In this document: in pieces, positions 14,684 through 64,000 of the stretch | Position numbering within the stretch: the first letter of the stretch is position 1 | Layout: each line of letters begins with the position of its first letter | Source: Scenedesmus sp. PABB004 | Lineage: Eukaryota | Direction: 5' to 3' | Assembly (NCBI GenBank): GCA_014905635.1 | Contig: JABVCE010000011.1 | Span: 434,001 to 498,000, forward strand | Length of the DNA stretch: 64,000 bases | The notes under the pieces: model-generated | Database searches by the model: none | Told to the model about the DNA's origin: nothing | Seen by the model: only the letters and a program-made list of their open reading frames with translations | Translations under genes and position numbers: made by a program

Positions 14684-16853
14684 ATGCAGGCTCGTTGCTC
14701 ATGCAGGTGAGCCAGCGAGCGGGACGCGAGGCGCTGATGCGGCTGCAGAGCGGCCCACGCGGAGCGCGGGGTCGGGGCGCCCGGGCAGCGCTGGTGCCCC
14801 GCGCGAGCAGCGCGCGCCGCAGCGCCAGCGCTGGCCAGCGGCCCGCTTGCAGAAAGCTGCAGCTCCTCGGCAGCTGCGCGCGGTCAGCGGACGGCCAGCG
14901 GCGGCGGGGGCGAGCAAACGGCGGCGTGGCGCGCCGCGGCGCGCCGCGACCGGCCGGCAGGCGCATTGCAGGCGCGCCAGGGCGCACGTCGCGGCGCTTG
15001 ACCCTCCCGCTCCGCACGCCCGCAGCGGGCGCGCCGCGGTCTTCCGCGGCGCGCGGCCGCTGTCGGCGCCGTCCGCGCCGCGCCGCGCCTCGCGCCGCGG
15101 CGCCGTGCAGGCGCGCGCCGCAATGCAGGCGCTCGTTCTGGACTGCGACGGTGCGCCCGGGGGCGTTTTTCTGCGCCCGCGGGCCTGCGCGCGCCGCCGT
15201 CGCGGCCGCCGCGCGGCGCGCGCCCCGCCCGACCCCGCCCCGCCCGACCCCACCTCCTCCGCCAGGCGTGATCCTCGAGTCGGAGGACCTCCACCGCCGC
15301 GCCTACAACGCCGCGTTTGAGAACTTTGACGTCCGCGGTGTGCGCCCGCGCGCGCTGCTTGAACAGCGCCGGCCGGGGCTCGGCGGCGCACGCGAGCGCA
15401 CCCGAGCGCACGCGCCCGCGCTGCCCTGCCGCGCGCAGTGTCGGGCGCCGTGGTGAACTGGAGCGAGTCGTTTTACGACGTCCTGCAAAACACCGTCGGC
15501 GGCGGCAAGCCCAAGATGCGCTGGTGCGGCGCCCCCGCGGGGCTGGGCCGCCGCCGCGCCCGCATCTGGGCTGGGCTTGGGCCCCAGCCTGGCACCGCGC
15601 GCCGAGCCCCGCGTCCGCCGCGGCGCCGCCGCGGCGCCGCAGGTACTTTGGGCGCGAGGGCTGGCCGACGTCGAGCGTGCTCGGCGGGCGCGTGCCGGCG
15701 AGCGAGGAGGAGCAGGCGCTGCTGGTGGACACGCTGCAGGAGTGGAAGAGCGACAAGTACCGCCAGATGGTCGGGTGAGAGGGACAGGGGGCAGCAGGGA
15801 GGGGCAGCAAGAGTGGCAGCAGGGCGCAGCAGGGAGGGACGGGAGGGTCGGGAGGGACGGGAGGGACGGGAGGGGCAGGGAGGCAGAGGGCGCTGCGGCT
15901 GCGGCTGCGGTCGTGACGCACGCGGCGGCGGCGGCCCGACGCGCGCCGCCCGCAACCGCGCGCCGCCAGCAACCGCGCCCCGCCGCGCCGCGCGCAGCTC
16001 GGGCGAGGTCCCCGCGCGGCCGGGCATCCTTCGCCTCATGGACGACGCGCGCGCGGCGGGGCTCAAGGTCGCCGTGTGCAGCGCGGGGACCAAGGACAGC
16101 GTGATCTTCACGCTCACCAGCATGCTCGGCCCCGAGCGCTTCGCCGCGCTCGACTGCTTCCTCGCGGGTGCGGCCCGCCGGCGGCCCGCCGGCAGCCCCG
16201 CGGCGGCCCCGCGGCGCCGTCGCACCGCCGCCGGCCCTCGGCAGCACGCGCCCACACCCGCCCGCACACAACCATGCCCACGCGCCCATCCGCACACACC
16301 CACGCCCGCCCGCCCGCCCGCCCACACGCGCCCGCCTCGCCCAGGCGACGACGTGGACAAGAAGAAGCCCGACCCCGCCATCTACGCCCTCGCCGCGTCC
16401 CAGCTCGGCGTGCCGCCGGGCGACTGCGTGGTGGTCGAGGACTCCATGATCGGCCTGCGCGCCGCGCTCGGCGCGGGCATGCGCTGCGTCATCACCTACA
16501 CGCCCTCCACGCGCGAGGAGGTGCGGCGGCTCCAGACGCGGCGCGCGGGAGGGAGGCGCTGGGCGCGGGAGGGCGCAGAGCACAGGCCGGGCACGGGCGA
16601 GCGTTGTGGTTGGGTTGTGGCGGCGCGCGCCGCGTGCGCGTGTGCGTGTGCCTGCCGCGTGCTGCGAGCGCGCTGCCTGGCCGCGTGGCGCGCGTGGCGT
16701 GTGTTTTGACCGGAGCGTGCCGCCCCCGCGCCGCAGGCGTTTGAGGGGGCGGACGTCGTTGTCGCGGAGATCGGCGACGCCGTGACGCTCGCCGTGCTCG
16801 CCGAGCGCCCCGCGGCGCCGCTCGACGACCGCGTCGCGCCCATCGCCGCCTGA
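14684..16853 (+). CDS. CbbY-family HAD-like phosphatase with plastid transit peptide (At4g39970-like); isoform with proximal last exon 16737-16853
   Basis: Motif I LDCDGVILESE, GGGKPKMRWYF, RPGILRLMD, AGDDVDKKKPDPAIY, VVEDSMIGL. A short first exon 14684-14706 splices in frame to an Arg/Ala/Ser-rich leader. Confidence 0.88.
15781..15885 (+). repeat. Intronic purine-rich (GGGAGGGAC)-like repeat
   Basis: Run of GGG tracts separated by short loops inside a CbbY-family gene intron. Confidence 0.7.
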
Positions 16854-31737: not shown

Positions 31738-31742
31738 TGTAA
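31738..31742 (+). terminator. TGTAA polyadenylation signal, probably for 30191-30646
   Basis: UGUAA is the established chlorophyte poly(A) signal. It lies in a lower-GC stretch between convergent genes. Confidence 0.5.
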
Positions 31743-31924: not shown

Positions 31925-34900
31925 TCACGCGACGGCCGGCGCCGGCGCCGCGGGCATCGGCACGAGGCGCAGGCTGTACACGACGCGGCCGCCGCCCACC
32001 GCGCCGCCCGCGCCGGCGCCCGGCGCGCGCCGCCCGCCGCGGCCGCCGCCGCGGCCGCCGCCGCGGCCGCCGCCGCCGCCGCCGCGAGCGGCGCCGCCGC
32101 CGCCGCCGGGGGCCTCGCCGCCGCCGGCGGCCTCGCCGCCGCCGCCGAGCGCTGGCGGTGGTGGCGCGGCGAGCGTCTCGGCGTAGGGCATGACGCCGAC
32201 GTCGAGCGCGGCGCCCTTTTGCTGCAGCCGCACGCGCGCCGCCGCGACCGCCGCCATCGCGATCGTCAGCAGCGGCGGCGTGCGGCCGAGCGGGCCGACG
32301 AAGCGCACGGCCGCGGGCTGCTCCTGCAGCACCTTGGCCACGATCGCGTCGCGCAGCTTGATGGGGTCGGTGCTCAGCGACACGCGCAGCTGCGCCGACT
32401 CGTCGACCTCCAGGCCTGCGCGGCGCGTACGTGCGGCGGGCAGGCGCGCGCGTCAGCGGCGGCGCGGCCGGGCCGCCGGGCCGAGACAGGCGCCTGTGCC
32501 CGCGCGGCGCGCCCGCGCGGCGCGCGCGCGCACCGCCGGGGAGCGCGCCGGCGAAGCGCTGCAGGCGGATGGCGTACGGCACGAGCGTCTGGCGGGTGTC
32601 GTCAAAGCGATAGTCCGACGCGACCGCCGCGGGCTCGGGCGCGGGCAGCACGGCCGGCAGCAGCACCAGCCCGCCCGCGCCGCTGCCCGCGGCGGCGGGC
32701 AGGAAGGTGTTGGCCACGGTCGCAAACTTGAGCAGCGGCCAGAGGTCGGCCGACACGGAGACGTCGAGCGGCGAGTTGGGCGACTGCGGGCGCGGCGCGG
32801 CGCGGCGCGGCGGGGTGGGCCGCGGGAGGGTCGCGGCGGCGGCGGCGCTGCCGTCGCTGCAGCTGGCCGCACAGCCGCTGCGCGCGCGCGCAAGCGGCGG
32901 CGCACCTGCAGGATGCTGCGCGCGATGTCGCTGTCGCGCACCACCAGCATGCGCAGGCGGCAGCCCGGCTCCTGCTCCGGCGCCGCTGCCGGCTTGCCGC
33001 GCTGCTGCTTCTTGCCGCGCGGCTGCCGCTGCTGCTTGCCCTTGTCCGCGGGCGCCGGCTCGGCGCCAGCCGCGGCGGCCGCGCCCGGCGCCTCGGCCAC
33101 CGCCGGCTCCTCGGCCGCCGCCGAGGCGCCGCGCTTGCCGCGCGGCGGCGCCTGCGTGAGCGGCTGCACGTCCACCAGCGCCAGCAGCCCGCCCGCGCCG
33201 TCGGCGGCGTCCATCTTGCGGCTGGCGGCCAGCAGCGCCTCCCACGCCGCCGCGTTGCCCGCGGGGCTGCCGTCGCTCCAGAGCCAGGCCGCGCCGGCGC
33301 GGCTCACGCGCGCCTCCACCGCGCCGGCGAGGCCAGAGACAGAGGAGTCAGTCGTCGCGACCGCGGGGCGGCGGTCCTCCTTCACGCCGTGCCCGCTGCG
33401 CCCCGGCTGCGGCGCCGGGACCGCCGTGAGGCGGCTGCGGCGCAGCTGCAGCTGCAGCAGCGGCTCGCCCGCGCCCGGCGCCGGCGCCTCCGGCTCGGGC
33501 GCCGGCGGCGGCGCGTCGTCGCCGTCGGCCATGGGCGCGGCAAAGGTGTTGAGCGACTCCAGGCTCTCCAGCAGCTGGTCAGCAGTGCTGGGCGGCCACA
33601 CCAGCAGCAGGCCTGCGCGCGCGCGGGCGGGCGCCGGGGGCAGGCGGGCGGGCGTCGACGCGCTGTGCGCGGCGTGGGGCTGCGGGGCGCGCGCGAGCCC
33701 ACGCACGCGCGCGCGCGCCCAGCGAGCCGGCACTCACGCTTCTTTGCCTCGCGCGCCTTGACGGCGGGCGCCCGGTCCGCGCCGGCGCCGGCGCCGGCGT
33801 CAGCGCCCGCGACCGCGCCCGCGCCGCCCGCCTCCTCCCGCCCCGGCAGCGGCGCCATCACGCGGCCGAGCAGCCCCGAGAGGCGCCCGACCTGGCCCGG
33901 CGGCAGCAGCAGCGCGACGCGGCGCTGCTTCACGAGCATCGTCTGCGCCGCCGCTGCGGCGGTCGCGAGCGGCTTGGCGTCGCTGCGCGGGAGGTTGACC
34001 TTTGGCACTGGCAGCTCCTGCAGCACGACCTGCTGCGCCAGCACCGTGATCGACGTGCCCTCCTCAAAGCGCGGCAGCACGCCGACCTCGTAGCCGCGGC
34101 TCAGCAGCTGCCCCCGCACGGCCAGCAGCGCCGCGGCCGCGCGCGCCGTCGCGGCCGCGCCCGCCGACAGCAGCGTCGCGCTGCCCGACTTGAGCAGCTC
34201 GAAGCTCAGCGTGCGCGCGAGGTCGCCCGCGTCGGTGGTGCCCTTGACCGTCAGGCGCGGCGCGCCCGCGCCGTCGCCCGTGCCGGGCGCGCCCGCGCCG
34301 GCGGCGGCGGCGCCGCCCGCCACGCTCGCGCGCGCCGGCAGGACGATTGCGGTGAAGGCCGCCGACTTGGTGAACGGCACGAACAGCAGCACGCGCCCCG
34401 GCTGGCCGAGCTGGCCCTGCGCCGCGGCGATGGTCGCGATGGTGCGGTACGTGTGCGCCTCGCTGCCGCTCGCCGCGCGGATGACCGTCTGCGGCGACTG
34501 CGGGGGCGCGGCGCGGCGGGACGCGCGGCGTGAGCGCGCGCGGCGGGGTGGGGCGCGGCCGGCGGCGCGGGCGCGGCGTGGCAGCCTGCCCCGCCGCGCG
34601 CACCTGCTCCAGGCGGCGCAGCAGCGCGTTGGCGGCCTTGCCGTCTCCGACGATGATGGCGCGCTCGCTCGGCGCGCGCTCGCTGCGGCGCGCCGCCGCG
34701 ACCGCCTGCTGCCCCGCCGCGGCGTGGCCGGCGTCGGGCTCCGGCGCCGCCGCGGGCGCGGCGTCCACGCTCACGGGCTCCACGGTCGCCGTGGCGGCGG
34801 CGCCCGCGCGGCGCGGCGCCCCGCTGCGGCGTCGTGCATCGCTGCGCAGCGCCGGCCTGCGGCGGCGGCGCCGGCGCGCCGTCAGGGCCCAAGCTCGCGA

Positions 34901-35145
34901 GCCGTCACTGCTCTCCCGGGGCGACCAATGCGCGCGCCGGGGAGCCCGCGGCAGCCCCAGGCGCCCGCGCCAGGCCCGCGCTGGCCGGGCGCGCCCCGGG
35001 CGCTGCGCGGGCTCCCGGGGCCCGCGCGCGCCGGGACAGGGCGTGCCCCTGTGACGTCGGCGCACCTGTGGGGGCCGCTGCCGACCGCAGGCCCGTGCGC
35101 GCGCCGCGCCGGCGTCGAGGGCGGGCGGCTCCGCGACGGCAGCAT
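31925..35145 (-). CDS. Multi-domain SpoVS/Alba-like putative nucleic-acid-binding protein with organelle transit peptide (multi-exon)
   Basis: Exons splice in frame from MLPSRSRPP.. to ..VYSLRLVPMPAAPAPAVA. Repeated units such as LTVKGTTDAGDLARTLSFELLKSGSATLLSAGAAATARAAAALLAVRGQLLSRGYEVGVLPRF follow the SpoVS pattern. Confidence 0.65.
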
Positions 35146-36222: not shown

Positions 36223-39200
36223 TCATCCGCTGCGCATGAGTGCCTCCATGAGGTTCTTGGCCGTGTTGCACTGCGCGTCGCTGCCGGCGAGCAGCACCTC
36301 GCGCGCGCCGCCGTCCAGCATGTGCTCCGAGAGCGTGATGACCGCGCCCGACAGCTGCGGCGGGGGAGGGAGGCGGGGCGGGGTGGGGCGCGGCGGCGGG
36401 CGGCGCGCGGCGGGCTCGCGGCGCCGCCCAGGGCCCGGGCCGCCAGCCGAGCGGCGCGCGGCCGGACGCGGCGGCGGCGGCGGCGGGCGCGCCGCGGCGG
36501 ACGCGGCGGGGGCCACGCACCGCCGACAGCTGCGCCGTCTGCTGCGGGTCGTCGAGGCGCAGCCGCACGACCTGGTCCTGCGTGAGCAGCACGCGCGCCT
36601 TGGGCACCGGCGGCGGCGCGACCGCGGCCGCGACGCTCGCGACCAGCCCCGCCAGGCCGCCGTAGCCGGAGCTGCTGCCCGGCCCTGACGCGCCCGGCTG
36701 CTGCAGCCCCGGGGCGCCGCCGGGCGCCGGCTGGCCGCCGGGGCGTAGATGTAGGCGACCTGCGGCTGGCCCTGCGCCTGCTGCAGCTGCGGCGGCGCCT
36801 GCAGCACCTGCTGCTGCTGCTGCAGCTGCTGCGGCGGCGCCTCGACGTACTGCTGCGGCTGCTGCGCGTAGACCACCATCGGCGCGCTGCCCGCCGGCGG
36901 CAGGCCCTGCTGCTGCACGACGTACTGCTGCTGCGGCGCCGCCATGCCCTGGCCCTGGCCAGCCGGCGCCTGCACGACGTACTGCTGCTGCGGCGCGCCG
37001 TACTCGCCAGGCGCCGGCGCGTAGCCGCTGTGCGGCTGGGCATAGACGACCTGCTGCTGCTGCGGCGGCGGGGCCTGCTGCATGTACTGCTGCTGCGGCG
37101 CGAGCGCCTGCTGGCCGCCCTGCTGCACGTACTGCGCGCCGGGGTCGCCGTACGCCTGCTGCTGCGGCGGGCCGCCCATGCCCGGCGGGCCCTGGTGCAG
37201 CATCTGCTGCTGCGGCGGCGGCGCGCCCTGCGGCGCCACGGGGCTGTCCGAGTCCCAGCGCGAGCGGCTGCGCTGCGGCGGCGGCGCGCCGCCCGGCGGC
37301 GGGCCGCCCAGCTGCTGGTGCGGGTGCGGCTGCAGGCGCGGGTCGGGGCCGGGCGGGCCGCCGTAGCCGCCCGGCGCGTGGCCGCCCGGCGGCGGGCCCA
37401 TGCCGCCGTGGCCGCCGTGGCCGCCGCCGTGGCCGCCCTGGGGCGGGGCCCGCGGCGTCGGCGGCGGCGCGCCCGTGGGCGGCGGGTAGTGGTAGATCAG
37501 CTGCCCGCGCGCCATGTTGCCGCGGATGGCCACCAGCGCGACGTGCGTCGCCAGCAGCGCCGCGTCGCGCGTGCCGCGGATCGTGAGCACCTGGCGCGCG
37601 CGCGGCAGCACGGGGCGCGCGCGTGAGCGCCGGGCGCGCGGGGGCGCGACGGCGCGGCGGAGGGCGGCGGGCGCGGGCGCACCTCCTGGCCCTGCTTCAC
37701 GCAGCGCGGGACGTCCGGGAAGGTGTAAATCTCAACCCCCGCGCCGGTCACGGCGCGCAGCTCCCTGCGAGGGCGCGGGCGCGCGGTCGGCCCGCGGCGG
37801 GGGCGCGCGGCGCGTCGGCCGCCGGCGGCCGCCCGTGCCGTGCCCGGACCGGGGCTCACTTGATGCTCGAGCCGCCCTTGCCCATGATCGCGCCGACCTG
37901 GCTGTGCGGCAGCACGATGCGCACGCTCGCGAGCGGCTCGCTCACGAGCTCGTCGTGCACCAGCTCCTGCGCGCGCGCGCGCGCGCCGGCGGCGCCGCGG
38001 CGACGGCGCGGGGCAAAGCGTGGGCAGACGGGGGACTCGGTGGCGGCAGGCGGGGCCGCGCGGCACACGCCGTGCGCCGCGCGCCGCGCGCCGTGCTTCC
38101 GCGGCGCGGCGCACCGTGATGCAGTCCATCGCCGCGTCAAACGCGGCGCAGCGCGGGTCGGCCACGTCCTCGGTCGACATGACCTGCAGCACGCGGTCGG
38201 TCGACCCCGGCTCCTCGTCAAACAGGTGCAGCCGCGCGCCGGTGCGGGCGCGGATGTCTTTGATCACGCGGCCGCCCGCGCCGAGCACGACGCCGCTGCG
38301 GCGCAGCGGGACGAGCACGCGGTACTCGGTCGTGGTGAGGCCGAGCAGGCCCTCGGTCTTGACGCTGTCGTTCGACGCGAGCACGCTGCGCGCGGACGGC
38401 GGCACCGCCATCGCCATCGCGTTGCCGCCCGGCGGCGGCCCGGGCCGGGGCCGGGGCCGGGCGGGCCGCCGCGGCCGGGCGGCGGGCCGGCGTCCCAGCC
38501 TGCGCGGCGCGGGGCGGCGAGCGCGGCGACGGTGGGCAGCGCGCGGCGGCGCGGCTATAGCCGGCGCCCCGGGGCGCGGCGGCGCCACGCGCGGGGGCCC
38601 CGTGCCCGCAACGCACCCGGCTCGCCGCCGCGGCTGCGCGGATCGTCGGGCCCACGGATGCGCTTGGGGTCGGGCCCCGGCCCGCGCGGGTCGTACGACC
38701 CGCCCGGCGCAATGCCGCCGCGCTCCATCGGCGGCGGGCCGTGCCCGTACGGGCCGCGGTCCATGCCAGGCCCCGGCATGCCGCCGCCGCCCATGGGCGG
38801 GCCGTTGCCGCCCATCATCGGCGGGCCGCCGACGCCCATCATCGGCGGGCCGCCGCCGCCAGCCATCACGGGCGGGCCGCCGCCGCCCATCATGGGCGGC
38901 CCGCCGGCCATGGGCGGGCCCGCGCCCGCGATGCCGCCGCCGCCAAAGCCCAGCACCTGGCGCAGGCGGTCGCTGACCATCGTGAGCGCGCCCATGGTCT
39001 GCTCGGGGCTGCCCACGATCTGCGGCGCGGCGGCGGGCGGCGCGGCGCGGCGGGGGGTCGAGCGCGGGCGCGCGTCGGAAGCGCGGCGCGGGCGCGGGCG
39101 CGGGCGCGGGCGCCGCGCCGCGGCGGCGCGCGCCGCGCCGCACCGTGAGCAGCTCGTCGCCGACGTCGGCCGGCGGCACGACGGGCGCGCCCGCGGTCGG

Positions 39201-40067
39201 CGCGGTGAGCTTGATGCTCGCGCCGCTCTTGGAGCGCAGCTCGGTGATCGCCGCGCCCTTCTTGCCCATGATGATGCCGATCTGGGGCTTGGCGAGCAGC
39301 AGGCGCAGCGTGCACTTGGGCGGCATGAGCATCGCGCCGCCGGGCCCCTCCTCGCCGACGATGCGCTCCGCGGTGCGCAGCAGCGCCTCCTGCACGCCCG
39401 CGACGGGCTTGCCGGCCCTGCGCCGGCGCGGCGGCGGGCGCGCCGGCGGCGGCGGCGGCGGCGGGGGCGGACGCGGCGCGTGAGCGCGCGCGCGCGCGGG
39501 TTGGCCGCGCCGCGCGGCGCGGCGCGCGGACGTCCTGCAAGCTGGCAGCGGCGCTCACTCGTCGAAGCCCTGCACGTGCACCAGGCGGTCCTCAAACGTG
39601 CCAAACGGCTTGTCCACGCCGACCTTGGCGCCGGTGGCGACCTTGGTGTTGTTGATGAAGTCTCCACCCTGCAGGCGGCCCGGCGGCGCGGGACGGCGGC
39701 GGTCGGCGCTGCTGCTGCGCCGCGGCGGCGCCGCAACAGGCGCTGCGCGCGGAGCCGCCGCCGGCGCCACCGCACCTTGCCGATCACGGAGCCCGCCTTG
39801 CGCAGCGGGACGAGCAGGCGGAAGTGGAGCAGGGGCGGGGGCGGGCCCCCTGCCCGCGGGAGGTCTGGCCGGCCACTCCACTCCTGTGTGGGCGCGCAGA
39901 GCGGCTCAGCGACGGCCCATCACGGCGGCCAGCGGCCCGGCCGTCGCCCCGGGCAGCGGGCGGACCTGTTCGTGGGCGGGGCGCTTCCCCAGCAGCCCGC
40001 CCTGGTCGTGATGAGGGCCCCCTGGCATCATCCCGCCCCCAGGCACGCCGCGCGGGTCCCAGGCCAT
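36223..40067 (-). CDS. KH-domain RNA-binding protein (HEN4/PCBP-like, four canonical KH plus one degenerate)
   Basis: GSVIGKGG, GIIMGKKG, GVVLGAGG and GAIMGKGG GxxG loops. The C-terminal KH-like unit lacks GxxG. Gly/Pro/Met and Gln/Tyr low-complexity linkers. Confidence 0.9.
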
Positions 40068-40506
40068 GGCGTCTGCGTGCTGCTGGTGCCACGTGCTCAG
40101 CGCATGATCGGGCGGGCACGCTGCACAACAGGAGGACCGCTGCGCCGCGGTGGCGAGCGGCGAGCGGCGGCGGCCCGGTGCTGCTGGCGGCCTGCCTAGC
40201 GCTCTCTCTGATTGGCGCCCGGAGTGGGTCTGGGGCTGGCGGCGGTCGGGGCAGGCCTTGACCACACGCGCCGTCACGACGGCGCCGTCGCGACAGCGCC
40301 GCGCTGCCTTGCAAGCGCGGCGGCGTGCGGCCGCCCCGCCACAGCCGCCCGCGGTGCTCAGGAGCGCTGGCACTGCACCGGCCAGCGCGAGCAGCAGCGG
40401 CAGCAGCAGCAGCAGCGGCGGCGCAGGCTGCACTGGGCGGGCCCGCCTGCCCTCCCAACGCACGCCACGCAGGCCGGGGCTAGGCCTGTCCGCCCGGCTC
40501 GGCGCC

Positions 40507-42324
40507 ATGGCGGCGCAGCAGCTGGGCGCGCCGGCGGCGGACGCGTGGCTCGCCGAGTACGCGGCGCTGGTGCCAGAGCTGGGCGCCCTGCAGCGGTGCG
40601 CGTGCGCTGGCCGGCCGGCGCGCGCGGCGACGGCTGCGGCGGCGCACGCGGCGCACGCGGCCGACGCGGCGGGCGCGCGCCGCGCAGGTCGCGGGCGCCC
40701 CCGCCGGCGCTGCGCGTGCTGCGGTCGAGCCAGCTCGACGCGGCGCGGCTCGACGCGGAGCTCGGCACGATGCTGCGCGAGCAGTTCATGGCAGCGTTCG
40801 CGCTCTTCCAGCCGGTGCGGCGCGGGCAGGGCAGGGCAGGGCAGGGCAATGCCTGGGCCGCGCGCCGCCGCCGACGCCCCAACGCGCGCGCCGCCGCGCA
40901 GGGCAGCGTGTCGAGCCTCGCGCCGGAGCTCAACCTGCTGCTGGCGTCGCTGGTGCGCAGTGGCGGCGGCGGCGCGCACGCGCACGGCCCCCGGCCGCGC
41001 CACGCCGCAGCGCGAGCCAGCGGCGGCACACGCGGCATGGCGACGCGCCGCGGCGCCGCCCGCGCGTGGCCCTAAACCTGAACCCTGCTCGCCAGGTGTA
41101 CTACCTGTCGGTCTGGCGCGGCCGCGCCACGCCCGGCAGCGAGCTCATGGGCCTGCGCTACCGCGACGAGCGCGCCATGGCGGCCGCTGCTGCTGCTGCT
41201 GCTGCTGCTGCCGCGGCGGCGGCGGGCGGCGACAGCGCTGCCGCTGCGGCGGCAGCGCCGCCCTGGGTGAGCGTGCGGGCGGGCGCGGCAGCGGCGGCAA
41301 TTCCGCCGCCCGGCCGCTTACGTGCGCCGCCGCCGCGCCGCCGCCGCAGCTGCACGGCGGCCGCAGTGGCATCGAGGGCCCCGGGCTCTCGCAGGCGCAG
41401 CGGCTGGGCTACGCGCTGCTGCTCGTCGCCGCGCCGTACGCGTGGGCGCGCGCGGGCCGGCTCGCCGCGTCGCGCGGCTGGGGCCCCGGCGCGGCGGACC
41501 GCGGCGGGCGCGCCGCGGCCGCGTGGCGGGCGCTGCGCTGGGTCGACGGCGCGCACAAGCTGGGCGTGCTGGTCAACCTCTGGGTCTTCCTGTGGGAGGG
41601 AAAGTACCGGTGCGCGGCGGCGGCGGGGCCGCTGCCGCCGCGGCGCGGGCACCGCGCGGGCGCCGCGCGGCGCAGCTGCACGGCGCAGCTGCACGGCGCA
41701 GCTGCACGGCGCAGCTGCACCGCGCGCGGCCGCGCGACGCCGGCGCCGCGCCGCGCCGCGCCGCCGCCGCGCAGGAGCCTGGCGGAGCGCGCGCTCGGCG
41801 CGCGGCTCGTGTACGGGCAGGCCCACATGTCGCGGCTCATCTCGTTTGAGTACCTCAACCGACAGCTCGTCTGGCAGGAGCTGTCCGAGTTCCTGCTCTT
41901 CCTGCTGCCCCTCATCGACGTGGGCCGCGTCAAGCGCGCCGTGCTGCGCCTGCTGCCGCGCGTGCCGCTCGGCGGCGGCGCCGCCGGCGGCGGCGAGGCC
42001 TACACGCGCGCGCCGCCACTCGCGGGCGCCGGCGCCAAGGGCGGCGCCGGCTCGGAGCCGGGGGCGGAGCAGCAGCAGGCGGCGGGCGGGGACGCGGGCG
42101 CGGCCGCCGGCGCCGGCCCCGCCGCGCCGCCGGGGCCGTGCCCCATCTGCGGCGCGGCCGAGGTGCTCGTGCCGTTTGCGGCGCACCCCTGCCGCCACGT
42201 CTTCTGCTACTACTGCCTCGCCGCGCACTGCGCCGCCGACGCGGGGTTTGCGTGCCCGCTCGACGGCGCGCGCGTGGACGCGATCGCACGCTACGCGCCC
42301 GCCGCCGCCGCCGCCGCCGACTGA
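40507..42324 (+). CDS. PEX2: Peroxin 2 (Pex2/Pex12 domain plus RING)
   Basis: QLDAARLDAEL, TPGSELMGLRY, GIEGPGLS, YRSLAERALGARL, ISFEYLNRQLVW, CPIC..PCRHVFCYYC. Confidence 0.93.
   Translation: MAAQQLGAPAADAWLAEYAALVPELGALQRCACAGRPARAATAAAAHAAHAADAAGARRAGRGRPRRRCACCGRASSTRRGSTRSSARCCASSSWQRSRSSSRCGAGRAGQGRAMPGPRAAADAPTRAPPRRAACRASRRSSTCCWRRWCAVAAAARTRTAPGRATPQREPAAAHAAWRRAAAPPARGPKPEPCSPGVLPVGLARPRHARQRAHGPALPRRARHGGRCCCCCCCCRGGGGRRQRCRCGGSAALGERAGGRGSGGNSAARPLTCAAAAPPPQLHGGRSGIEGPGLSQAQRLGYALLLVAAPYAWARAGRLAASRGWGPGAADRGGRAAAAWRALRWVDGAHKLGVLVNLWVFLWEGKYRCAAAAGPLPPRRGHRAGAARRSCTAQLHGAAARRSCTARGRATPAPRRAAPPPRRSLAERALGARLVYGQAHMSRLISFEYLNRQLVWQELSEFLLFLLPLIDVGRVKRAVLRLLPRVPLGGGAAGGGEAYTRAPPLAGAGAKGGAGSEPGAEQQQAAGGDAGAAAGAGPAAPPGPCPICGAAEVLVPFAAHPCRHVFCYYCLAAHCAADAGFACPLDGARVDAIARYAPAAAAAAD
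41671..41720. repeat. Intronic tandem repeat, 13-bp unit CGCAGCTGCACGG, about 4 copies
   Basis: Directly visible in a PEX2 intron. Confidence 0.85.
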
Positions 42325-51500: not shown

Positions 51501-54500
51501 ATGGCGCGCCCCGCGCTCACCGTGAGCGCCGACCTGCTGCTCAAGCAGTACATACGGCTGGCTCAGGACTTCACGGATGCCGCGACGCCCCAGGTGGGCC
51601 ATGGCAGGCGGGGCCAGGGGTGATGGCGAGGGCCCCAACCACCACCTCGCCCTCCGAGAGCAGCAGCGCCGGCAGCTGGCGCCCTGGCGGGGCGGGAGGC
51701 GCACGGTCGTGCAGCATGGCGTGCAGGCGGCGTGCGGGCGCGGCGCCGCGGCGGCGGCGCGGGCCGCCAGCAGCGCCGCGGCGCGCTGCTGTGCTGCTGC
51801 GCGCGGCGCGGCCGACCGGCGGGCCGCACGGCGGTGCGCAGGACAACTTCCTGGCCACCATCTCCAGCGACTGGCGCTATGAGCGCGCGCTGCAGGGCAT
51901 CCGGCTGCTCGCGCACCACCACCTCGGGCAGCTCGTGCAGGCGCTCATCGCGTGGCGCCAGGCGGTGAACGAGGACATCAAGAAGAACTTCAGCCACAAC
52001 AATGTCGTCAACGTGCAGGGCGTGTGCAAGCGGGTGCGGGGGCGGGCGGAGGGGAGGGGGCGCCGCGCAGCAGGCGCGCGCGGCGGCGCGGCCCGGCGCG
52101 GCGGCGCTGCGCCGCCCGGCGGCGCGCGCTGCCCACGCCGCGCCGCACCGTCGCCGCCGCTCGCAGGCGGCCATGGAGATCCTCTTCCTCGAGGCCGCCG
52201 CGCAGGTGCTGGACGAGTTTGTGCCCGCGTTCTGGCGCGACCGGCAGTTCCAGACCTTCTTCGACAGCATGCAGCAGTGAGCGCCGCGCCGCTGCCGCTG
52301 CGCCGCCGCTGCGGCGGCGGGTGCAGCGCCGGCGGGAGGGCGGCTGCGGGCCGCGTGCGGCTGTGGCCGCAGCGAACTGCAGCAGCCTGGCGGCGGCTCG
52401 CCGAGCTGCGCCGCGCCGCGCCGCGCCGCGCCGCGGCCCGCAGCGTGTCGTTCCGCTGGCTGCTCAACGCCGAGGAGTATGTCCCTCACGCGGAGCTCAG
52501 CCTCGTGCGGCAGCACGTCGTGCTCGTCAGCGGGCGCATCGTGGGCGCGCTGTCGCGCATCCGGCTCGCCGACGTGGCCGCCACGTTTGTGAAGAAGCTC
52601 GAGGAGCGCGTCGCGCCGCGCAAGGACCCCACGCCGCGCGCCGACCAGAGCCTGCTGCGCGCGCAGGCGCTCAAGCTCTGCGCAGGTGCGGCGGCAGCCG
52701 GCGCGGCGCGGCGCGGCGGCTGCTGGCGGCGGATGCTGGCTGCGGCGGCGGGCGCGCGACAGCGGCAGCTGAGCAGCAGCTGAGCTGCCTCGCCGCGCCG
52801 CCGCGCCCCGCAGGCATGCGCGGCGTGGTGCTGAGCTTTGACAGCGACGCGCAGCTGGAGCAGTCGACGCGCTTCCTCGCGCGCGCGCACCCTCTGGCCT
52901 ACACGGCGGCGGTCAAGAAGAGTCAGCTGCACCACGCGCTGTGTGAGATGCTGACCGACATCCTCACGCCCCTCGTGCGCGGCAACCAGCCGCCGCCCGG
53001 CGCGGGGCTCAGCAGCGCGCTGCTGGCGGAGTGGTACGGCCAGGTGCTGCGGCTGAAGAACGAGATCGGGCAGTGGGCCAACAAGCACAACAAGCACATC
53101 CCGGTGCGCGCCGCGCACGCGCAGTCGACCGCGGCGGCGCCGCGCTGCGCCTGCGCCCCGGCCGACCTCGCACCTCGCGCCTGCGTGCCGCCGCGCGCGC
53201 AGGTGGGCTACCCGCTCGTGACGGTGCTGGTGTGCCTCGTGGACGCGGCCAACTACAACACCCTGGTCGACAGCATGGCAGACTTCCTGGCCAAGCAGAT
53301 GAAGAACAAGGAGTACAGGTGCGAGGGTGTGCGGACGTGGGTGTGGGGACGCGATGTGTCGTGGCACCCGCTTCCGCTTCCGCCGTGCCCACGCCCCGCC
53401 CGCCGCCGCCGTCGCCGCCGCCGCGACCGCCGCTGCTTCAGGTCGCTGTGCTTCAAGTGCCTAAACCAGCTCGTCATCAGCAGCCTCGTGCGCAACCGCG
53501 CCGCGCCGTGCGCGCCCGCGGTGCTGGCGTGGCTGGACAAGATCGTCAAGCCCGGCCTCGCCGCCGCGCGCAAGGGCGGCATCCCCCTCGCAGAGCAGCA
53601 GGCGCGGCGCGCGCGGCGCGGCAGCGGCGTGCTTCGCAGCAGCGCGGGGGCGCAGCGCCGCCCGCGCGCCACCGCCCGACGCCGCCGCCCCGGCGCCTGC
53701 GCGCCTGGCGGCGCAGGAGTTTGTGGGCGACGTGGCGGACCTGAGCCCCGAGTACTGCGTCGGCAGCATCCTGCCCGACCTGCTCGCCCCCGAGTCGGGC
53801 CCCGAGGCGCAGCTCATCGCGCTGCGCACGCTGCACCAGGCGCGGCGACGGCGGCGGCGGCTGCGCGCAACGGCACGGCTCGGCGGGCGGTTCGCGTGCC
53901 GCGCGCTCGTGACACGCCCGCGCCCTCTCTCTGGCGCAGGTCGTGACGTCGGTGCCGCGCGACAGCGCCGCCGCGCTGGAGCTGCGCGCGAGCCAGGCGC
54001 GGCGCAGCCTCGCGCTCACGGGCGCCAGCGCCGGCGGCGGCGGCCCGGGCGGCAAGCGCATGGTGCAGGTGCGGCGACCGCCGCGCTGCGCGCCGCCGGC
54101 GGCCGCGCCGCGCCGCGCGCGCCTGCGCCGCGCTCGCGCCCACCCGCACGCGCCCGCGCGCTGTCCGCGCCGCAGCTGCCGGCGCACCAGGTGCTGCAGC
54201 TCATCCGCGCGGGGCAGCACCCCTTTGACCTGCAGGGCATTGCGCACCTGCTGCCGCGCGTGCAGCACGCGCTCGCGGGGCTGCTGGCCGGCTTCCACCG
54301 CGCGTTTGGCGGCTGCCTCGCGTACGCGCCCGACGCACCGCTGCCCAAGGACCGCGCCGCGCAGCTCGCCCTCTTTGGCGGCGTGCTGCGCCTGGTGCCC
54401 TACCTGCGCCCCGAGCAGTGGCCCAGGCCGCGCCCGCTGGAGCTGCTGCCCGCGTGCGTGGCGTGCCGCGCCGCGCCGCGCGACGGCCGGCCGCCGCGCG

Positions 54501-57327
54501 TCCGCGGGCCGCGCGCGGCGCCGCGGCGTCCGCTCAGCCGCCGCTGCGCTCACGCGCTCACGCGCGCGTACCCCGTCGCCCCCCTGCACGCCCCGCGCGC
54601 AGCTACACGGCGCACGCCGAGGGCGGCGTGCGGCTGTCGGCCTTTGACGCCCTCATGGGCGTGCTGCGCGGCGCGCCGGTGCTGCGCGGCGCCGTGCTGG
54701 CGGGCATGGCCGCGCTCCTGGCCGCCATCCCCGACGAGGCCACGCAGGCGCGCCCGCCGCGCGTGCGGGGCCGGGGCTCGCGGGCCGCGCCGCGCGGTGC
54801 GACGCCGCCGGCCACCGGCGACCGACGCCGCCGCCGCGGCCGCCCGCCGTTGATATCGCCGCCGCGGCGCGCCGCGCAGGCCATCCGCGAGTGCCTGCTG
54901 CAGCTGCGCAAGCTCATGGAGGCCTGGCTGCGGCTGCTGCAGGAGCAGCGCCTCAGCGCGAGCCTGCTGCGCGCGGACGCGCCCTCGCCGAGCAGCAGCA
55001 GCGCCAGCGCCAGCCGTGGCGGTGCCGGCGCCGGCGCTGCGCCGCCGCGAGGCAGCCGCGAGGCGGGCGCCGGCGGCGACGCCGCCGCGCTCGCGGCGAG
55101 CCTCGTGCTGGACGTGCACCGCCTTGAGGGCGTGCTCTTTGTGCTGCTCTGCTCATTTGATGAGGCAATCCGGCTCGACGCGCTCGCCACGCTCGGCCTG
55201 CTGCGCACGCTGCACCAGCAGCTGCTCGCGACGTCGGCGCAGCTCGGCCTGGCCGGCCTCGCGCCGCCCGCGCCCGCGCCCGCCCCGCCGCCCTCTGCGG
55301 CGGGAGCGCCCGGCGGCGGCGGCGGCGGCGGCGGCCTCGCCAGCCCCGGCGCGGGCGCCGACGGCGCGCCGCTGCAGCCCGCGGCCAGCGCGGGCTCCGG
55401 CACCGGCTCGGGGCTGCTGCTGCGGCACAAGCCGACCATGTCGCGCGACTCCGTGGATTTCGTGCAAACACTGGGTGCGCGCGCCGCGCGCCGCGCGAGC
55501 CGCCGCGACGCTGCGGCGCTGGCGCGCTCGCTCGGGCGCGCGCGTGCGCCCGAGCGCCGCGCCACGCGCTCGCGCACGCGCTCGCAGGCCAGCTGGAGAT
55601 GCCGGGCGCGGACGCGACCAGCCTGATGGACGTCCTGGACGAGGTGCGGCCGCCGCTGGGGCCGCGCCGCTCGCGCGCCGGGCCGGCCAGCGGCTCAGCG
55701 GGCCGTGCAGCGCGCGCGGGAGGCGCCGAGCGCTGAGCGCTGGGCGCTGCGCGGCGCGTGGCGCGCGCGCGGTGCGTCCCGGACCCGCGCGCAGGTGGGC
55801 ACCGACGTCGCGCGGCGGTGCTACTGGGACTTTGGTGACTGGAGCGACGTCTGGCGCGACACCAAGCACGTCCCGCTCGACGCCACGCTGCAGTCGGTGC
55901 TGGGGGCGCGCGACGAGGTCGGCCGGCTGCGCTGGCTGCGCTGCGCCGTGGAGCTTGCGCGCGCGGCGTGCCACATGTGCCCCACGAGCATGGGCGTTGC
56001 GTACATGGAGCTGCTGGCCAAGCTCTCGCGGTGCGCGGCGCTCCAGGGGCCCCCTTGCACGACTGGCCGACGCGCGCGGCGCGCCGGCGCCCGCGCCGCC
56101 GCGGCGCGGCGACCGGCTCGGCCGCCGCGCCGCCCCCTGCGCCAGGCACCTGCCGCGCGACGCGTCGGGGCGGCTGTCGATCCCCGCGGAGGCGTCCGAG
56201 GGCCGGCGAGGCGAGGCCTGGAAGGCCTTCATCGTGGTCGCCTGCGCCTGCCCGCCCTCACTGTCGGAGCGCGTCGAGCGCGCCGCCGCGCGCAGGGTGC
56301 GGCACGCGCGCGGGGCGGGGGCGCGACGCCGGTGGCGTGAGCGCGTCGCGCGCTGCGCGTCGCGCTCCGCGCCGACCCCCCGCCGCCGCCGCCCGCCGCG
56401 CGCAGGGCGCGGCGCTGACGGCGCGCGAGCTCATCCGCGCGCTGCTGGCCTCCCTCACCGGCGGCGCGGCCGTCTCGCAGCAGGCGCGCGCGCGCGCGCG
56501 CGCGCCGCGCCTCCCCCTCCCGCCCCCGGCCGTGCTGCTCGCTCACGCCCCGTCGCTCCGTCGCATGGCGCGCCCACTCACTCAGGTCTGCCTCATGGCG
56601 CTGGGTCACGCCAGCCCCGAGCACTACCCCGCGCTCTTTGAGGAGCTGCCCGGCGCAATGGACGAGTACCAGCGGCCCGGCAAGGCGCGCCGCGGCAACG
56701 CGCGCCCCGAGGAGGTGCGCGTGTGTGCGTGTGCGCGTGCGCGGCGCGCGGCGGCGGCGGCGGCGGAGGCGGCGGCGCCCGCGGCGCCCGCTGCGCTGCC
56801 CCGGCGGCGGCCACCCTTGGACTGCAACCTTGAACCTAACGCTCTGTGGTCTCCGTCGCCGCGCAGGCGCGCAAGGTGGTGGCCAATGTGATGCGGCTCG
56901 TCGCCGACGCGATGCCGCCCGGCGCGCTCGCCGCCGCGCCCGGCGTGCGCGGCCGGCTGCTCGAGTGGCTGCGCGACACCGCGCTCTACCTCCGCTCCCT
57001 GCCGCCCTTCGGCGAGGCGTTCTGGGAGGTCTCGCAGGCGCGGCGCCGGCGCCGGCGGCGGCGGCGGCGGGGTTTAGGGGCGTTTGAACGAGGGCGGGCT
57101 GGCGGGGTGGCCGCGCGGGCCGTGCGGCACGCGTGTGCGCAGCCACCGAGGCGCGCGCCGCCGCCGCCCCGCGCCGCAGGTCGCGTACTGCCTGTGCACC
57201 GTGTGCCGCTGCGTCGCGGGGCAGCTCGTGGGGCCGCTCACGCTGCCGCTGGCGATGCTGCGCGACGCGCCCGGCGGCGTGCAGCGCGCCGCGAGTGGCC
57301 GGAGCGCCGCGAGCGAGCCGAGCACGC

Positions 57328-57358
<31 letters not shown>

Positions 57359-61969: not shown

Positions 61970-62005
<36 letters not shown>

Positions 62006-63409: not shown

Positions 63410-63462
<53 letters not shown>

Positions 63463-64000
63463 TGCCGGCGTCATTGGCGGCAGCACGAGCCAGAGCCTCT
63501 CCGCCGGCGGCTGCTTCCAGCAGCACGGCCCCGACAGCCCCAGCCACGCGGCGCTGGTGCGCCTGCTGCAGGGCCTGTGCAGCGCGATGTCGCGCGCGCT
63601 GCTGCCGACGTTTGGCGAGTGGCTGCTGCGCTTCTGGGTCGGCCTGCTGCTGCTCCCGGGCGCGGCGGCGCTGCACCCCCACGTGCTGCTGCTGCTGCGC
63701 TGCCTCCTGGCGACGCCGGGGCTGGCGCTCGGGCCCGGCGCGGCGCTGCTGTCGGACGGCGCCTTTCTCAGCCCCATTGTCGGCCTCTCGCAGGTGCGGC
63801 GCACCAGCCGGCGCGGCCGGGGCTGGTCGCCCGCGGCCGGCGCGGCCGGGGCTGAGCCGCGCCGCTGCCGCTGCCTGCCGCCGCCGCCGCGCGCAGGGCC
63901 CGCTTTGCCAGCACGCGCTGGACGCGTTGGATGCGATCATGCAGCTCACGCTCACAGCCGGCGCGGAGCAGCAGCAGGCGCAGCAGGCGCCGCAGCAGGG
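51501..64000 (+). CDS. Furry/MOR2/PAG1/Tao3-family cell morphogenesis HEAT/ARM scaffold (truncated at window end)
   Basis: Plant Furry-like peptides LVQALIAWR, FRWLLNAE, KKSQLHHALCEML, GYPLVTVL, LVLYKIVDP, DSYQQFQLQLAEKLARDHPELSEALCEE, LLKSMYYVT, IERLWSTLA, QQTIDHLVYE, SRHLACRSQQV. Confidence 0.92.
61093..61157. repeat. (GCGCC)n pentamer microsatellite at an intron 3' end
   Basis: About a dozen near-perfect units directly before the CAG acceptor. Shorter arrays occur in many introns of the window. Confidence 0.85.
63413..63460 (+). repeat. (CAG)16 encoding a polyglutamine tract in the Furry-like protein
   Basis: 48 nt of pure CAG, in frame with exon ECMATLS...LAAEQQQ. Confidence 0.9.

What the first reader, a model, noticed from the sequence alone, without database searches (positions are those of the whole stretch)
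31925..35145. Organelle-targeted protein made of tandem SpoVS/Alba-like domains
The spliced protein has an Arg/Ser/Pro/Ala-rich leader followed by repeated beta-alpha-beta-alpha-beta-beta-like units. The best units are about 34258-34025 (LTVKGTTDAGDLARTL..SAGAAATARAAAALLAVRGQL..VGVLPRF), about 33370-33165 (TDSSVSGLAGAVEARVSRAG) and about 32390-31965 (LRVSLSTDPIKLRDAI..FVG..AMAAVAAARVRL..VGVMPY). Up to three more degenerate units lie between them. Bacterial SpoVS is a small single-domain protein with an Alba-like fold, linked to nucleic-acid binding. A concatenated algal version suggests an uncharacterised plastid or mitochondrial RNA or nucleoid factor. The match is by eye.
Basis: inference. 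Interest (0 to 1): 0.7.

Follow-up and report, generated by a model that had tools for sequence, protein, structure and literature searches.

The report
Six-unit SpoVS/Alba-fold eukaryotic protein
This is a real spliced nuclear gene for an 846-residue protein made of an import-type leader and six small Alba-type units, three of them true copies of the bacterial SpoVS domain, and it probably binds RNA or DNA inside an organelle, though nobody has studied the family.

Summary
On the minus strand, 35145-31925, six GT-AG exons join in frame into an 846-aa protein.

- U2: a profile of its orthologues hits Thermus SpoVS (2eh1/2ek0) at E 1.7e-6. Nine of 10 U2-bearing orthologues pass Pfam's SpoVS cut-off.
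- U6: matches U2 by hhalign at 96% probability, E 3.8e-9.
- U4: the window's own exon 4 folds as beta-alpha-beta-alpha-beta-beta. Its best structural matches are SpoVS, Z 10.3-10.9.

The units in between are weaker. In a 986-aa homologue, U1 and U3 fold with the same topology (pLDDT 82.6, pTM 0.75). They show no significant SpoVS sequence signal. U5 looks shortened and was not modelled.

Overlapping uninterrupted ORFs from other contigs link all units into one gene.

Organelle targeting rests only on leader composition. Nucleic-acid binding rests only on fold analogy. I found no paper describing the architecture. This scan had already noted a two-SpoVS-domain haptophyte gene on other DNA (e1-2578640).

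Verdict: a new variant of a known domain family, of moderate interest.

The parts
35066..35145 (-). Exon 1: start codon and first 26 codons of the Arg/Ser/Pro/Ala-rich leader
   Evidence: First in-frame ATG after a stop. The GT donor at 35065 joins in frame to exon 2. The exon 2 frame has no Met upstream of U1. No homologue supports this junction, so it is the weakest exon.
34604..34856 (-). Exon 2: rest of the leader, a low-complexity spacer, and beta1-alpha1 of unit U1 (AIIVGDGKAANALLRRLEQ)
   Evidence: The exon 2/3 junction is read without a break in P0010/P0032 (..ANALLRRLEV-APQTLVRA..) and in P0022.
33738..34497 (-). Exon 3: U1 beta2-beta4, all of U2, and U3 beta1-alpha2
   Evidence: P0001. 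It has 26 representative homologues. The orthologue profile hits PDB SpoVS 2eh1 at E 1.7e-6.
34324..34663 (-). Unit U1 (aa 92-169, spans intron 2): conserved beta-alpha-beta-alpha-beta-beta unit, not SpoVS by sequence
   Evidence: Strongly conserved (..LLYVPFTKSxAFTA..). The homologue model gives E12-15 H21-30 E33-38 H43-63 E65-75 E78-87. Its best structural match is an IF3 chain, Z 7.5. hhalign against U2 gives P 0.07 and against U6 P 0.027, not significant.
34012..34260 (-). Unit U2 (aa 191-273): SpoVS domain
   Evidence: Pfam SpoVS at 20.4 bits in the window. Nine of 10 U2-bearing orthologues score above GA 24. The profile hits 2eh1/2ek0 at E 1.7e-6. The homologue's U2 matches SpoVS structures at Z 14.5-14.8, rmsd 1.7-1.9 A over 81-85 residues.
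33416..34005 (-). Unit U3 (aa 276-430, spans intron 3): beta-alpha-beta-alpha-beta-beta unit with low-complexity inserts, not SpoVS by sequence
   Evidence: Eleven orthologue fragments cover beta1-alpha2. The homologue model gives E181-185 H191-203 E206-211 H216-234 E238-246 E252-260. Its best structural matches are SepF at Z 7.5 and IF3-C at Z 7.0-7.3. hhalign against all other units is not significant.
32906..33612 (-). Exon 4: U3 beta3 and tail, and all of U4
   Evidence: P0003, with 7 homologues. P0055 begins 5 residues before LLLVWPPSTADQLL, as expected at an acceptor.
32906..33373 (-). Unit U4 (aa 445-600): SpoVS-fold domain with a 66-residue disordered insert between beta3 and beta4
   Evidence: The AF2 model of the window's own exon 4 has core pLDDT 86-91: E83-85 H91-105 E107-112 H116-137 E142-150, insert, E217-225. 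The top 4 of 27 Foldseek hits are SpoVS. VIA gives Z 10.3-10.9 over SpoVS residues 1-86/90, against Alba at 8.1-8.9. hhalign against U2 gives P 0.0015 over 42 columns in register, with a reversed control at 0.42.
32963..33160 (-). Lys/Gln/Arg/Ala-rich insert in the U4 beta3-beta4 hairpin
   Evidence: pLDDT is below 50. In 8 orthologues the insert is 43-85 aa and Q/K/R-rich. Six of the 8 are net positive and 2 net negative.
32534..32783 (-). Exon 5 = unit U5 (aa 601-684): shorter conserved unit, read by eye as beta-alpha-beta-beta; fold not tested
   Evidence: Conserved in P0061 and in P0047/P0066 (36 invariant columns). P0061 reads across the exon 4/5 junction without a break. hhalign against U4 gives P 0.011 over 21 columns only.
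31952..32413 (-). Unit U6 (aa 685-838, exon 6): SpoVS domain with a Gly/Arg-rich insert before beta4
   Evidence: Pfam SpoVS at 18.7-19 bits in the window. Thirteen of 20 orthologues hit SpoVS at E <= 0.1, best 4.2e-5. hhalign against U2 gives 96% probability, E 3.8e-9, over 63 columns. An independent U2 HMM hits it at iE 0.0016. It is the most conserved part, up to 90% identity. P0047 carries U5 and U6 in one ORF.
31988..32179 (-). Gly-rich insert with the run GRGGGRGGGRGGRR in the U6 hairpin
   Evidence: The length varies from 20 to 65 aa in 20 sequences, of which 14 are net positive, 2 neutral and 4 net negative. The RGG run is seen only in the window's sequence.
31925..31927 (-). Stop codon (TGA)

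Best explanation
A six-exon nuclear gene of a very GC-rich eukaryote encodes an 846-aa protein. It begins with a leader of about 90 residues that is basic, hydroxylated and Ala/Pro-rich.

Six small alpha/beta units of the IF3-C/Alba type follow, with topology beta-alpha-beta-alpha-beta-beta:
- The even units (U2, U4, U6) are members of the SpoVS domain family.
- The odd units U1 and U3 share the topology but have diverged beyond sequence recognition.
- U5 is shortened.

Long disordered low-complexity loops are inserted at the beta3-beta4 hairpins of U4 and U6.

Proposed mechanism (inferred): the leader imports the protein into an organelle, plastid or mitochondrion. There the covalently linked units stand in for the dimer or oligomer that free Alba/SpoVS proteins form, and so make an extended surface that binds organellar RNA, or less likely nucleoid DNA. 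The hairpin inserts lie where Alba arms touch nucleic acid.

My odds: architecture and SpoVS membership about 0.9; organelle targeting about 0.6; nucleic-acid binding about 0.5.
For: Shown:
- An in-frame GT-AG gene model.
- Uninterrupted ORFs from other contigs read across four of the five junctions. These are P0010/P0032 and P0022 for exons 2/3, P0022 for 3/4, P0061 for 4/5 and P0047/P0066 for 5/6.
- P0022 carries all units in one 986-aa ORF on a 4.3-kb contig.
- Fragments of U1-U2, U4 and U6 report the same longest-contig length in six cases: 17708, 13286, 77098, 4945, 24117 and 19747.

SpoVS membership:
- (Pfam and PDB sequence hits).
- hhalign U2-U6 at 96% probability.
- A single-sequence phmmer search with the window's U2 pulled in U2, U4 and U6 of P0022 (alignment list).
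- Structure: the window's U4 against SpoVS gives Z 10.3-10.9. The homologue's U2 against SpoVS gives Z 14.5-14.8.

Other points:
- The three-unit homologue model has pTM 0.75, which suggests defined packing between neighbouring units.
- The leader has 11 K/R against 1 D/E in its first 50 aa.
- Fold analogues bind nucleic acid: ALBA2-DNA 3u6y, Alba-RNA 3wbm and Rpp20/25-RNA 6lt7 appear among the matches.
- SpoVS was predicted to be DNA-binding and dimeric (PMC2732212, passages read).
Against: - No targeting predictor, expression data or binding assay was available.
- The window's own U2 and U6 score below Pfam's gathering cut-off: 20.4 and 18.7-19 bits against 24.
- The U6 orthologue profile found no PDB chain at E <= 10.
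- U1, U3 and U5 show no significant profile similarity to SpoVS units, P 0.03-0.8.
- The structural matches of U1 and U3, Z 7.0-7.5 to IF3-C and SepF, lie in the range the tool calls common for unrelated models.
- With an independent HMM, the window's U4 is not significant by sequence, iE 0.61.
- The inserts are not uniformly basic. In U6, 4 of 20 are net negative, and in U4, 2 of 8.
- By eye, the unit cores are not markedly basic.
- Exon 1 and the start codon have no comparative support.
- Bacterial SpoVS itself has no demonstrated biochemical activity (PMC2732212).
Confidence: 0.55

Rival explanations
1. The architecture is the same, but the protein is an organellar nucleoid (DNA) architectural protein. 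It would coat or bridge DNA as archaeal Alba does, and would not be an RNA factor.
For: Archaeal Alba chromatin proteins and an ALBA2-DNA complex are among the structural matches, Z 8-10.7. Rigden and Galperin predicted SpoVS to be DNA-binding (PMC2732212).
Against: Nothing here separates DNA from RNA. Most eukaryotic Alba-fold matches in the same lists are RNA-bound (Rpp20/25, Pop6/7, IF3-C). No nucleoid-type DNA-binding motif was found by Pfam.
Confidence: 0.2
2. The protein is not imported into an organelle. It would be a cytosolic or nuclear RNA-binding protein whose N-terminus is just low-complexity sequence.
For: In an 80% GC genome, Arg/Ala/Pro/Gly-rich stretches arise everywhere. RGG runs are typical of nuclear and cytosolic RNA-binding proteins (recalled). 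Exon 1 is unsupported by homologues. Orthologue N-termini are not conserved in sequence.
Against: The leader is nearly free of acidic residues, 1 in the first 50, and precedes a conserved mature part. P0032 and P0022 also begin with basic, acid-poor stretches: 7 K/R against 0 D/E and 6 against 2. The RGG run is not conserved in orthologues.
Confidence: 0.15
3. The units are a protein-protein scaffold, for example SepF-like self-assembly or a docking platform, with no nucleic-acid binding.
For: U3 matches SepF as well as it matches IF3-C, Z 7.0-7.5. One PDB entry models B. subtilis SpoVS in a protein complex with YunD (9a7h). No biochemical activity is known for SpoVS.
Against: The closest and widest set of fold relatives are nucleic-acid binders. 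The SepF matches lie in the score range the tool warns is common.
Confidence: 0.08
4. The gene model is an artefact. The region would hold two or more separate genes, or chance open frames of a GC-rich genome.
For: All six frames are largely open at 80% GC. No RNA run could be listed.
Against: Every exon except exon 1 has homologues in the chosen frame at 37-90% identity. Four junctions are bridged by uninterrupted ORFs elsewhere, and P0022 holds all units in one ORF.
Confidence: 0.02

Closest known systems
Bacterial SpoVS (Pfam PF04232; B. subtilis SpoVS, Thermus thermophilus SpoVS, PDB 2eh1/2ek0)
   Same: U2, U4 and U6 share the domain. The evidence is profile hits and structural matches: full-length superposition at Z 10.3-14.8 with the same beta-alpha-beta-alpha-beta-beta order.
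   Different: SpoVS is a free protein of 86-90 aa, reported in Firmicutes, Chloroflexi, Thermotogae and Deinococcus-Thermus (PMC2732212). Here there are three copies plus three divergent units in one 846-aa spliced eukaryotic protein, with a leader and with 20-85-aa loops inserted before beta4. Identity to the solved chains is only 16-26%.
Alba superfamily (archaeal Alba/Sso10b, eukaryotic Rpp20/Rpp25 and Pop6/Pop7, plant and trypanosome Alba)
   Same: The fold is the same: Z 8.1-10.7 for U2 and U4. These proteins act as dimers or heterodimers on DNA or RNA, which is the model for how linked units could work here.
   Different: No Pfam Alba hit was found in any unit. SpoVS chains score 1.4-4 Z units higher than Alba chains. 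Alba proteins are not known to me as six-unit arrays (recalled).
Two-SpoVS-domain haptophyte gene noted earlier in this scan (e1-2578640)
   Same: It is an intron-containing eukaryotic nuclear gene with more than one SpoVS domain. That note describes it as part of a widespread, unstudied eukaryotic family.
   Different: It has two domains against six units here. I did not compare the sequences, and a word look-up with U6 found no look-alike window.
Chlamydomonas RBP40/RB38, chloroplast psbD translation activator
   Same: It is a nuclear-encoded chloroplast RNA-binding protein that binds a U-rich 5' UTR element (PMC3555230, passage read). I recall, from no call, that it was described as four repeats of about 70 residues with no known RNA-binding motif. 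That would fit SpoVS-sized units.
   Different: It is a lead only.
Helical-repeat organellar RNA-binding proteins (PPR, OPR, TPR)
   Same: They are nuclear-encoded, leader-bearing, tandem-repeat proteins of green-algal organelles. This is an analogy of role only (PMC8635915, listing only).
   Different: The fold is entirely different: alpha-solenoid against alpha/beta units.

Membership tests
SpoVS domain family (PF04232) | Significant sequence similarity to the family profile or to a solved SpoVS | tested here: met
   U2: the orthologue profile hits 2eh1/2ek0 at E 1.7e-6, and 9 of 10 U2-bearing orthologues score above GA 24, up to 44.7 bits. U6: 13 of 20 orthologues hit at E <= 0.1, best 4.2e-5, and hhalign to U2 gives 96% probability. 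Caveats: the window's own single sequences score 18.7-20.4 bits, below GA, and the U6 profile found no PDB chain.
SpoVS domain family (PF04232) | beta1-alpha1-beta2-alpha2-beta3-beta4 fold that superposes best on SpoVS structures | tested here: met
   Window U4: Z 10.3-10.9 over SpoVS residues 1-86/90, ranked above all Alba chains. Homologue U2: Z 14.5-14.8, rmsd 1.7-1.9 A. U6 was not modelled.
SpoVS domain family (PF04232) | Membership of the odd units U1, U3 and U5 | tested here: inconclusive
   U1 and U3 have the same topology in the homologue model. hhalign P values are 0.03-0.8, there is no Pfam hit, and the best structural matches are IF3-C and SepF at Z 7.0-7.5. U5 has no model.
Bacterial SpoVS protein (orthologue of B. 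subtilis SpoVS) | Free-standing single-domain protein of about 86-90 aa | tested here: not met
   846 aa, six units, spliced eukaryotic gene. It carries the domain but is not a SpoVS orthologue.
Alba family (PF01918) | Match to the Alba sequence profile | tested here: not met
   No Alba hit at E <= 1 in 4 window ORFs or 14 homologues. Only the fold is shared.
Organelle-imported proteins (transit or presequence) | N-terminal targeting peptide recognised by a predictor or by an import experiment | not testable with these tools
   Composition only: 11 K/R, 1 D/E, 11 A, 8 P and 6 S in the first 50 aa.
RBP40/RB38-type chloroplast RNA-binding proteins | Sequence homology to Chlamydomonas RB38 | not tested
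   The sequence is not obtainable here. The repeat description is recalled.

The most novel reading that the evidence does not exclude
These proteins would be a so far unrecognised class of organellar nucleic-acid-binding repeat proteins: an 'Alba/SpoVS oligomer in one chain'. Pairs of a divergent unit and a SpoVS unit (U1-U2, U3-U4, U5-U6) would form three pseudo-dimers that bind a defined stretch of organellar RNA. That would parallel what PPR and OPR solenoids do, but with an alpha/beta fold taken over from bacteria or phages, not from the cyanobacterial ancestor of plastids.
Probability: 0.2. Interest if true: 0.8.

Novelty: new variant of a known kind. Interest (0 to 1): 0.5.

Why it matters
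SpoVS is treated in the literature I could search as a small bacterial or phage protein of unknown activity (PMC2732212; PMC11621453). Here it appears three times, alternating with three same-fold units, in a conserved eukaryotic protein with an import-type leader.

If the protein is organellar and binds RNA or DNA, it adds an alpha/beta-fold family to the factors of organelle gene expression. The known ones in algae are almost all helical repeats. It would also give SpoVS, whose function has been open since 1995, a tractable eukaryotic relative.

The family is invisible to routine annotation. The sources call the fragments 'hypothetical protein', 'SpoVS' or, wrongly, 'termination factor Rho'.

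Tried and rejected
- **Self-comparison by blastp** of the spliced protein gave no off-diagonal hit. The units are too diverged for pairwise search.
- **phmmer against PDB sequences.** P0001 found nothing. P0002 found only Gly/Arg low-complexity matches. The U6 profile (A2) found nothing at E <= 10.
- **The search for homologous proteins.** A narrower one (residues 1-60, longer) found none of 185 candidates, so full-length annotated orthologues were not obtained.
- **Metagenome scans.** Two scans matched patterns, but no stretch was confirmed by tblastn. One alignment query was unsuitable. Related loci could therefore not be fetched, and co-linearity in relatives rests on shared contig lengths.
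- **Sequencing runs.** None was listed.
- **Complex prediction** for U5 with U6 was not available.
- **No whole genome** is held for the window.
- **Alignment A4** stacked the U6 and U4 fragments onto U2 and was not used for folding.
- **The U4 HMM hit U3 fragments** at iE 8e-17 to 9e-4. I rejected this as an Ala/Gln low-complexity artefact, because hhalign U3-U4 gives P 0.92.
- **The first U2 HMM contained P0022's own U4 and U6**, so its E-values for them were circular. I redid it without P0022 and the window protein.
- **Conserved RGG box:** rejected. The run occurs only in the window's sequence, and insert charge varies.
- **Triplication of a two-unit module:** not supported. The odd units do not resemble each other, P 0.03-0.52.
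- **TGTAA as a green-algal poly(A) signal:** 5 in the window against 2.1 expected, and none downstream of this gene on its strand.
- **Pfam on five neighbouring long frames:** nothing.
- **Literature.** 'SpoVS' with chloroplast, Chlamydomonas or algae, 'Alba-like' with Chlamydomonas, chloroplast and RNA-binding and 'PF04232' found no description of such a protein. The only trace is a volvocine marker gene labelled 'SpoVS' (PMC4856071: table passage, one supplementary figure legend and one primer row).
- **RBP40 papers.** The passages read give no domain description. PMC2174876 is not held.
Full report
**Observation.** The region lies in about 80% GC DNA. All six frames are largely open there: 139 stop-free frames of 280 aa or more occur in the 64 kb window. 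ORF length therefore proves nothing.

Reading the minus strand, I placed five GT...AG introns of 209, 106, 125, 122 and 118 nt. The six exons join in frame from the ATG at 35145 to the stop ending at 31925, giving 846 aa. The exons are 35145-35066, 34856-34604, 34497-33738, 33612-32906, 32783-32534 and 32415-31925.

The exon 2 frame has no Met upstream of the first unit, so a spliced first exon is needed. That exon is the only one without comparative support.

**One gene, conserved elsewhere.** A full-library HMMER search with exon 3 found 26 representatives at E <= 1e-3, of which 14 were at <= 1e-10 and 7 at <= 1e-30. A word-seeded search with the first 85 residues of exon 6 found 19 proteins at 48-90% identity. 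One with exon 4 found 7.

Nearly all are short ORFs called on Logan or JGI contigs. They are named 'hypothetical protein', 'SpoVS' or 'termination factor Rho'.

Uninterrupted ORFs bridge four of my five junctions:
- P0010/P0032 and P0022 read across exon 2/3.
- P0022 reads across exon 3/4.
- P0061 reads across exon 4/5.
- P0047/P0066 carry U5 and U6 together.

P0022 is a 986-aa ORF on a 4.3-kb contig and holds the whole array. Fragments of U1-U2, U4 and U6 also report the same longest-contig length in six cases. I take this, as inference, to mean the same multi-exon gene. No RNA run could be listed for direct proof.

**SpoVS membership by sequence.** The window's own U2 and U6 hit Pfam SpoVS below the gathering score: 20.4 and 18.7 bits against 24, at E 4e-4 and 1.5e-3.

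Their orthologues do better:
- Nine of the 10 U2-bearing proteins scanned pass the cut-off, at 26.4-44.7 bits. One scores 22.2. The 4 U3 fragments in the same call hit nothing.
- A profile of 19 U1-U2 sequences finds Thermus thermophilus SpoVS (2eh1/2ek0) at E 1.7e-6 over chain residues 2-71 of 90.
- For U6, 13 of 20 orthologues hit SpoVS at E <= 0.1, best 4.2e-5. The U6 profile found no PDB chain.
- The protein atlas listed SpoVS clusters first, at scores of 0.80-0.85, which is lead level only.

**Unit against unit.** I cut the model into six units: U1 92-169, U2 191-273, U3 276-430, U4 445-600, U5 601-684 and U6 685-838. I built an alignment for each from the fragments plus P0022. I then ran hhalign on all 15 pairs, each with a column-reversed control.

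| Pair | Result |
|---|---|
| U2-U6 | 96% probability, E 3.8e-9, 63 columns in register (reversed control P 0.46) |
| U2-U4 | P 0.0015, 42 columns in register (reversed control P 0.42) |
| U4-U5 | P 0.011, 21 columns only |
| The other 12 pairs | P 0.027 to 0.92 |

By sequence, then, the protein has two certain SpoVS units, one probable unit and three unproven ones.

My first U2 HMM had absorbed P0022's own U4 and U6, so its E-values for those were circular. The fact that a single-sequence phmmer search with the window's U2 pulled them in is itself informative. An HMM of 19 sequences without P0022 or the window protein gave the following:
- window U6: iE 0.0016
- window U4: iE 0.61
- P0022 U4: iE 1.2e-4
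- P0022 U6: iE 1.3e-5

**Structure.** AlphaFold2 on the window's own exon 4 with 8 sequences gave mean pLDDT 61, but 86-91 in the core. The elements are E83-85, H91-105, E107-112, H116-137, E142-150, then a disordered 66-residue insert, then E217-225.

Foldseek's first four of 27 matches are SpoVS chains (E 0.009-0.02, probability 1.00), followed by Alba proteins at E above 1. VIA-align gives Z 10.3-10.9 over SpoVS residues 1-86/90, spanning the insert. Alba chains reach 8.1-8.9.

For the odd units I folded residues about 92-362 of P0022, with 27 fragments as the alignment. The model has pLDDT 82.6 and pTM 0.75. It shows three consecutive beta-alpha-beta-alpha-beta-beta units.

| Unit in the P0022 model | Best matches |
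|---|---|
| U2 | SpoVS at Z 14.5-14.8, rmsd 1.7-1.9 A over 81-85 residues; Alba at 8.4-10.7 |
| U3 | SepF at Z 7.5; IF3-C at Z 7.0-7.3 |
| U1 | an IF3 chain at Z 7.5 |

The U1 and U3 values lie in the range the tool says is common for unrelated models. What is shown is the shared topology, not homology.

**Other features.**
- **Leader.** The first 50 residues hold 11 K/R, 1 D/E, 11 Ala, 8 Pro and 6 Ser. P0032 (7 K/R, 0 D/E) and P0022 (6 K/R, 2 D/E) start similarly, but P0030 does not (2 K/R, 1 D/E). This fits an organellar presequence but is not a test.
- **Inserts.** The beta3-beta4 hairpins of U4 and U6 carry low-complexity inserts of 43-85 and 20-65 residues. Fourteen of 20 U6 inserts and 6 of 8 U4 inserts are net positive. 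The GRGGGRGGGRGGRR run occurs only in the window, so I do not treat it as a conserved RGG box.
- **Context.** The window holds ordinary eukaryotic nuclear genes: a P-type ATPase, a HAD hydrolase, a KH protein, Pex2/12 and MOR2/PAG1. Whether the organism is a green alga was not tested.

**What is known.** Papers I could search treat SpoVS as a bacterial protein of unknown activity with a predicted Alba fold. It has been proposed to be a dimeric DNA binder, and it was reported from Firmicutes, Chloroflexi, Thermotogae and Deinococcus-Thermus (PMC2732212, passages; PMC11621453, passages).

Searches for SpoVS with chloroplast, Chlamydomonas or algae, for Alba-like with Chlamydomonas, and for PF04232 found no description of a eukaryotic multi-unit protein. 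The only trace is a volvocine linkage marker labelled 'SpoVS' (PMC4856071).

This scan had already noted a haptophyte gene with two SpoVS domains on other DNA (e1-2578640). I did not re-test it.

From memory only, Chlamydomonas RB38/RBP40 was described as four repeats of about 70 residues without a known motif. Whether those repeats are SpoVS units could not be checked here.

**Mechanism and rivals.** My best reading is an imported organellar protein in which covalently linked Alba-type units replace the dimer or oligomer of free Alba/SpoVS and bind RNA. The hairpin inserts would sit at the arms that contact nucleic acid in Alba complexes.
- Shown: gene structure, conservation, SpoVS membership of U2, U4 and U6, and the topology of U1 and U3.
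- Inferred: import, unit pairing (hinted at only by pTM 0.75) and nucleic-acid binding.

The rivals are a nucleoid DNA protein, a non-organellar RNA-binding protein, a pure protein scaffold and a mis-joined gene model. Their odds are given in the Rival explanations section.

Noticed in passing
window 37500-39554 (-), perhaps continuing to about 36223: The upstream neighbour on the same strand has KH domains (KH_1, E 2.1e-17). It is followed by a Gln/Pro/Gly-rich frame that ends about 1 kb before this gene's ATG. An RNA-binding gene next to a putative RNA-binding gene is probably coincidence.
   Followed up: no
window 40108-42321 (+); 51883-63998 (+); 1048-4009 (+); 15363-16706 (+): Pfam hits to Pex2/Pex12 (1.5e-14), to the MOR2/PAG1 'Furry' N, middle and C regions (down to 2.9e-30), to the E1-E2 ATPase (7e-20) and to a HAD hydrolase (8e-11). 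These show an ordinary eukaryotic nuclear context.
   Followed up: no
whole window: GC is about 72-86% in every 500-nt bin examined. There are 139 stop-free frames of 280 aa or more in 64 kb. Open frames on both strands overlap every real exon, so gene calling here must rest on homology and splice sites.
   Followed up: partly
P0055 and P0068 (JGI fragments of the U3 tail plus U4): The source names them 'transcription termination factor Rho'. This is probably a mis-annotation driven by the Gln/Lys-rich insert. No Rho family hit was seen for the window's equivalent.
   Followed up: no
orthologue fragments P0004-P0017, after the ..PRFxEG motif of U2 (the window equivalent is about 34060): Most orthologue ORFs diverge into unrelated sequence right after this motif, whereas the window's exon 3 and P0022 read on. 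This suggests relatives have an extra intron there that this genome lacks.
   Followed up: no
window 31738 (+), and 4 other sites: Only 5 TGTAA pentamers occur in 64 kb, against 2.1 expected. None lies downstream of this gene on its own strand. The one at 31738 is on the opposite strand, just beyond this gene's stop.
   Followed up: no
P0028 (1341 aa, weak hit, E 3.4e-4): It is a protein made of about 15 near-perfect tandem copies of a unit of about 80 residues. It matched exon 3 weakly in 15 stretches. It looks unrelated and was left out of all alignments.
   Followed up: no
PDB 9a7h_B: An integrative model pairs B. subtilis SpoVS with YunD. It ranked first in Foldseek and VIA-align for U4 and third in VIA-align for U2. 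It hints that bacterial SpoVS has a protein partner.
   Followed up: no
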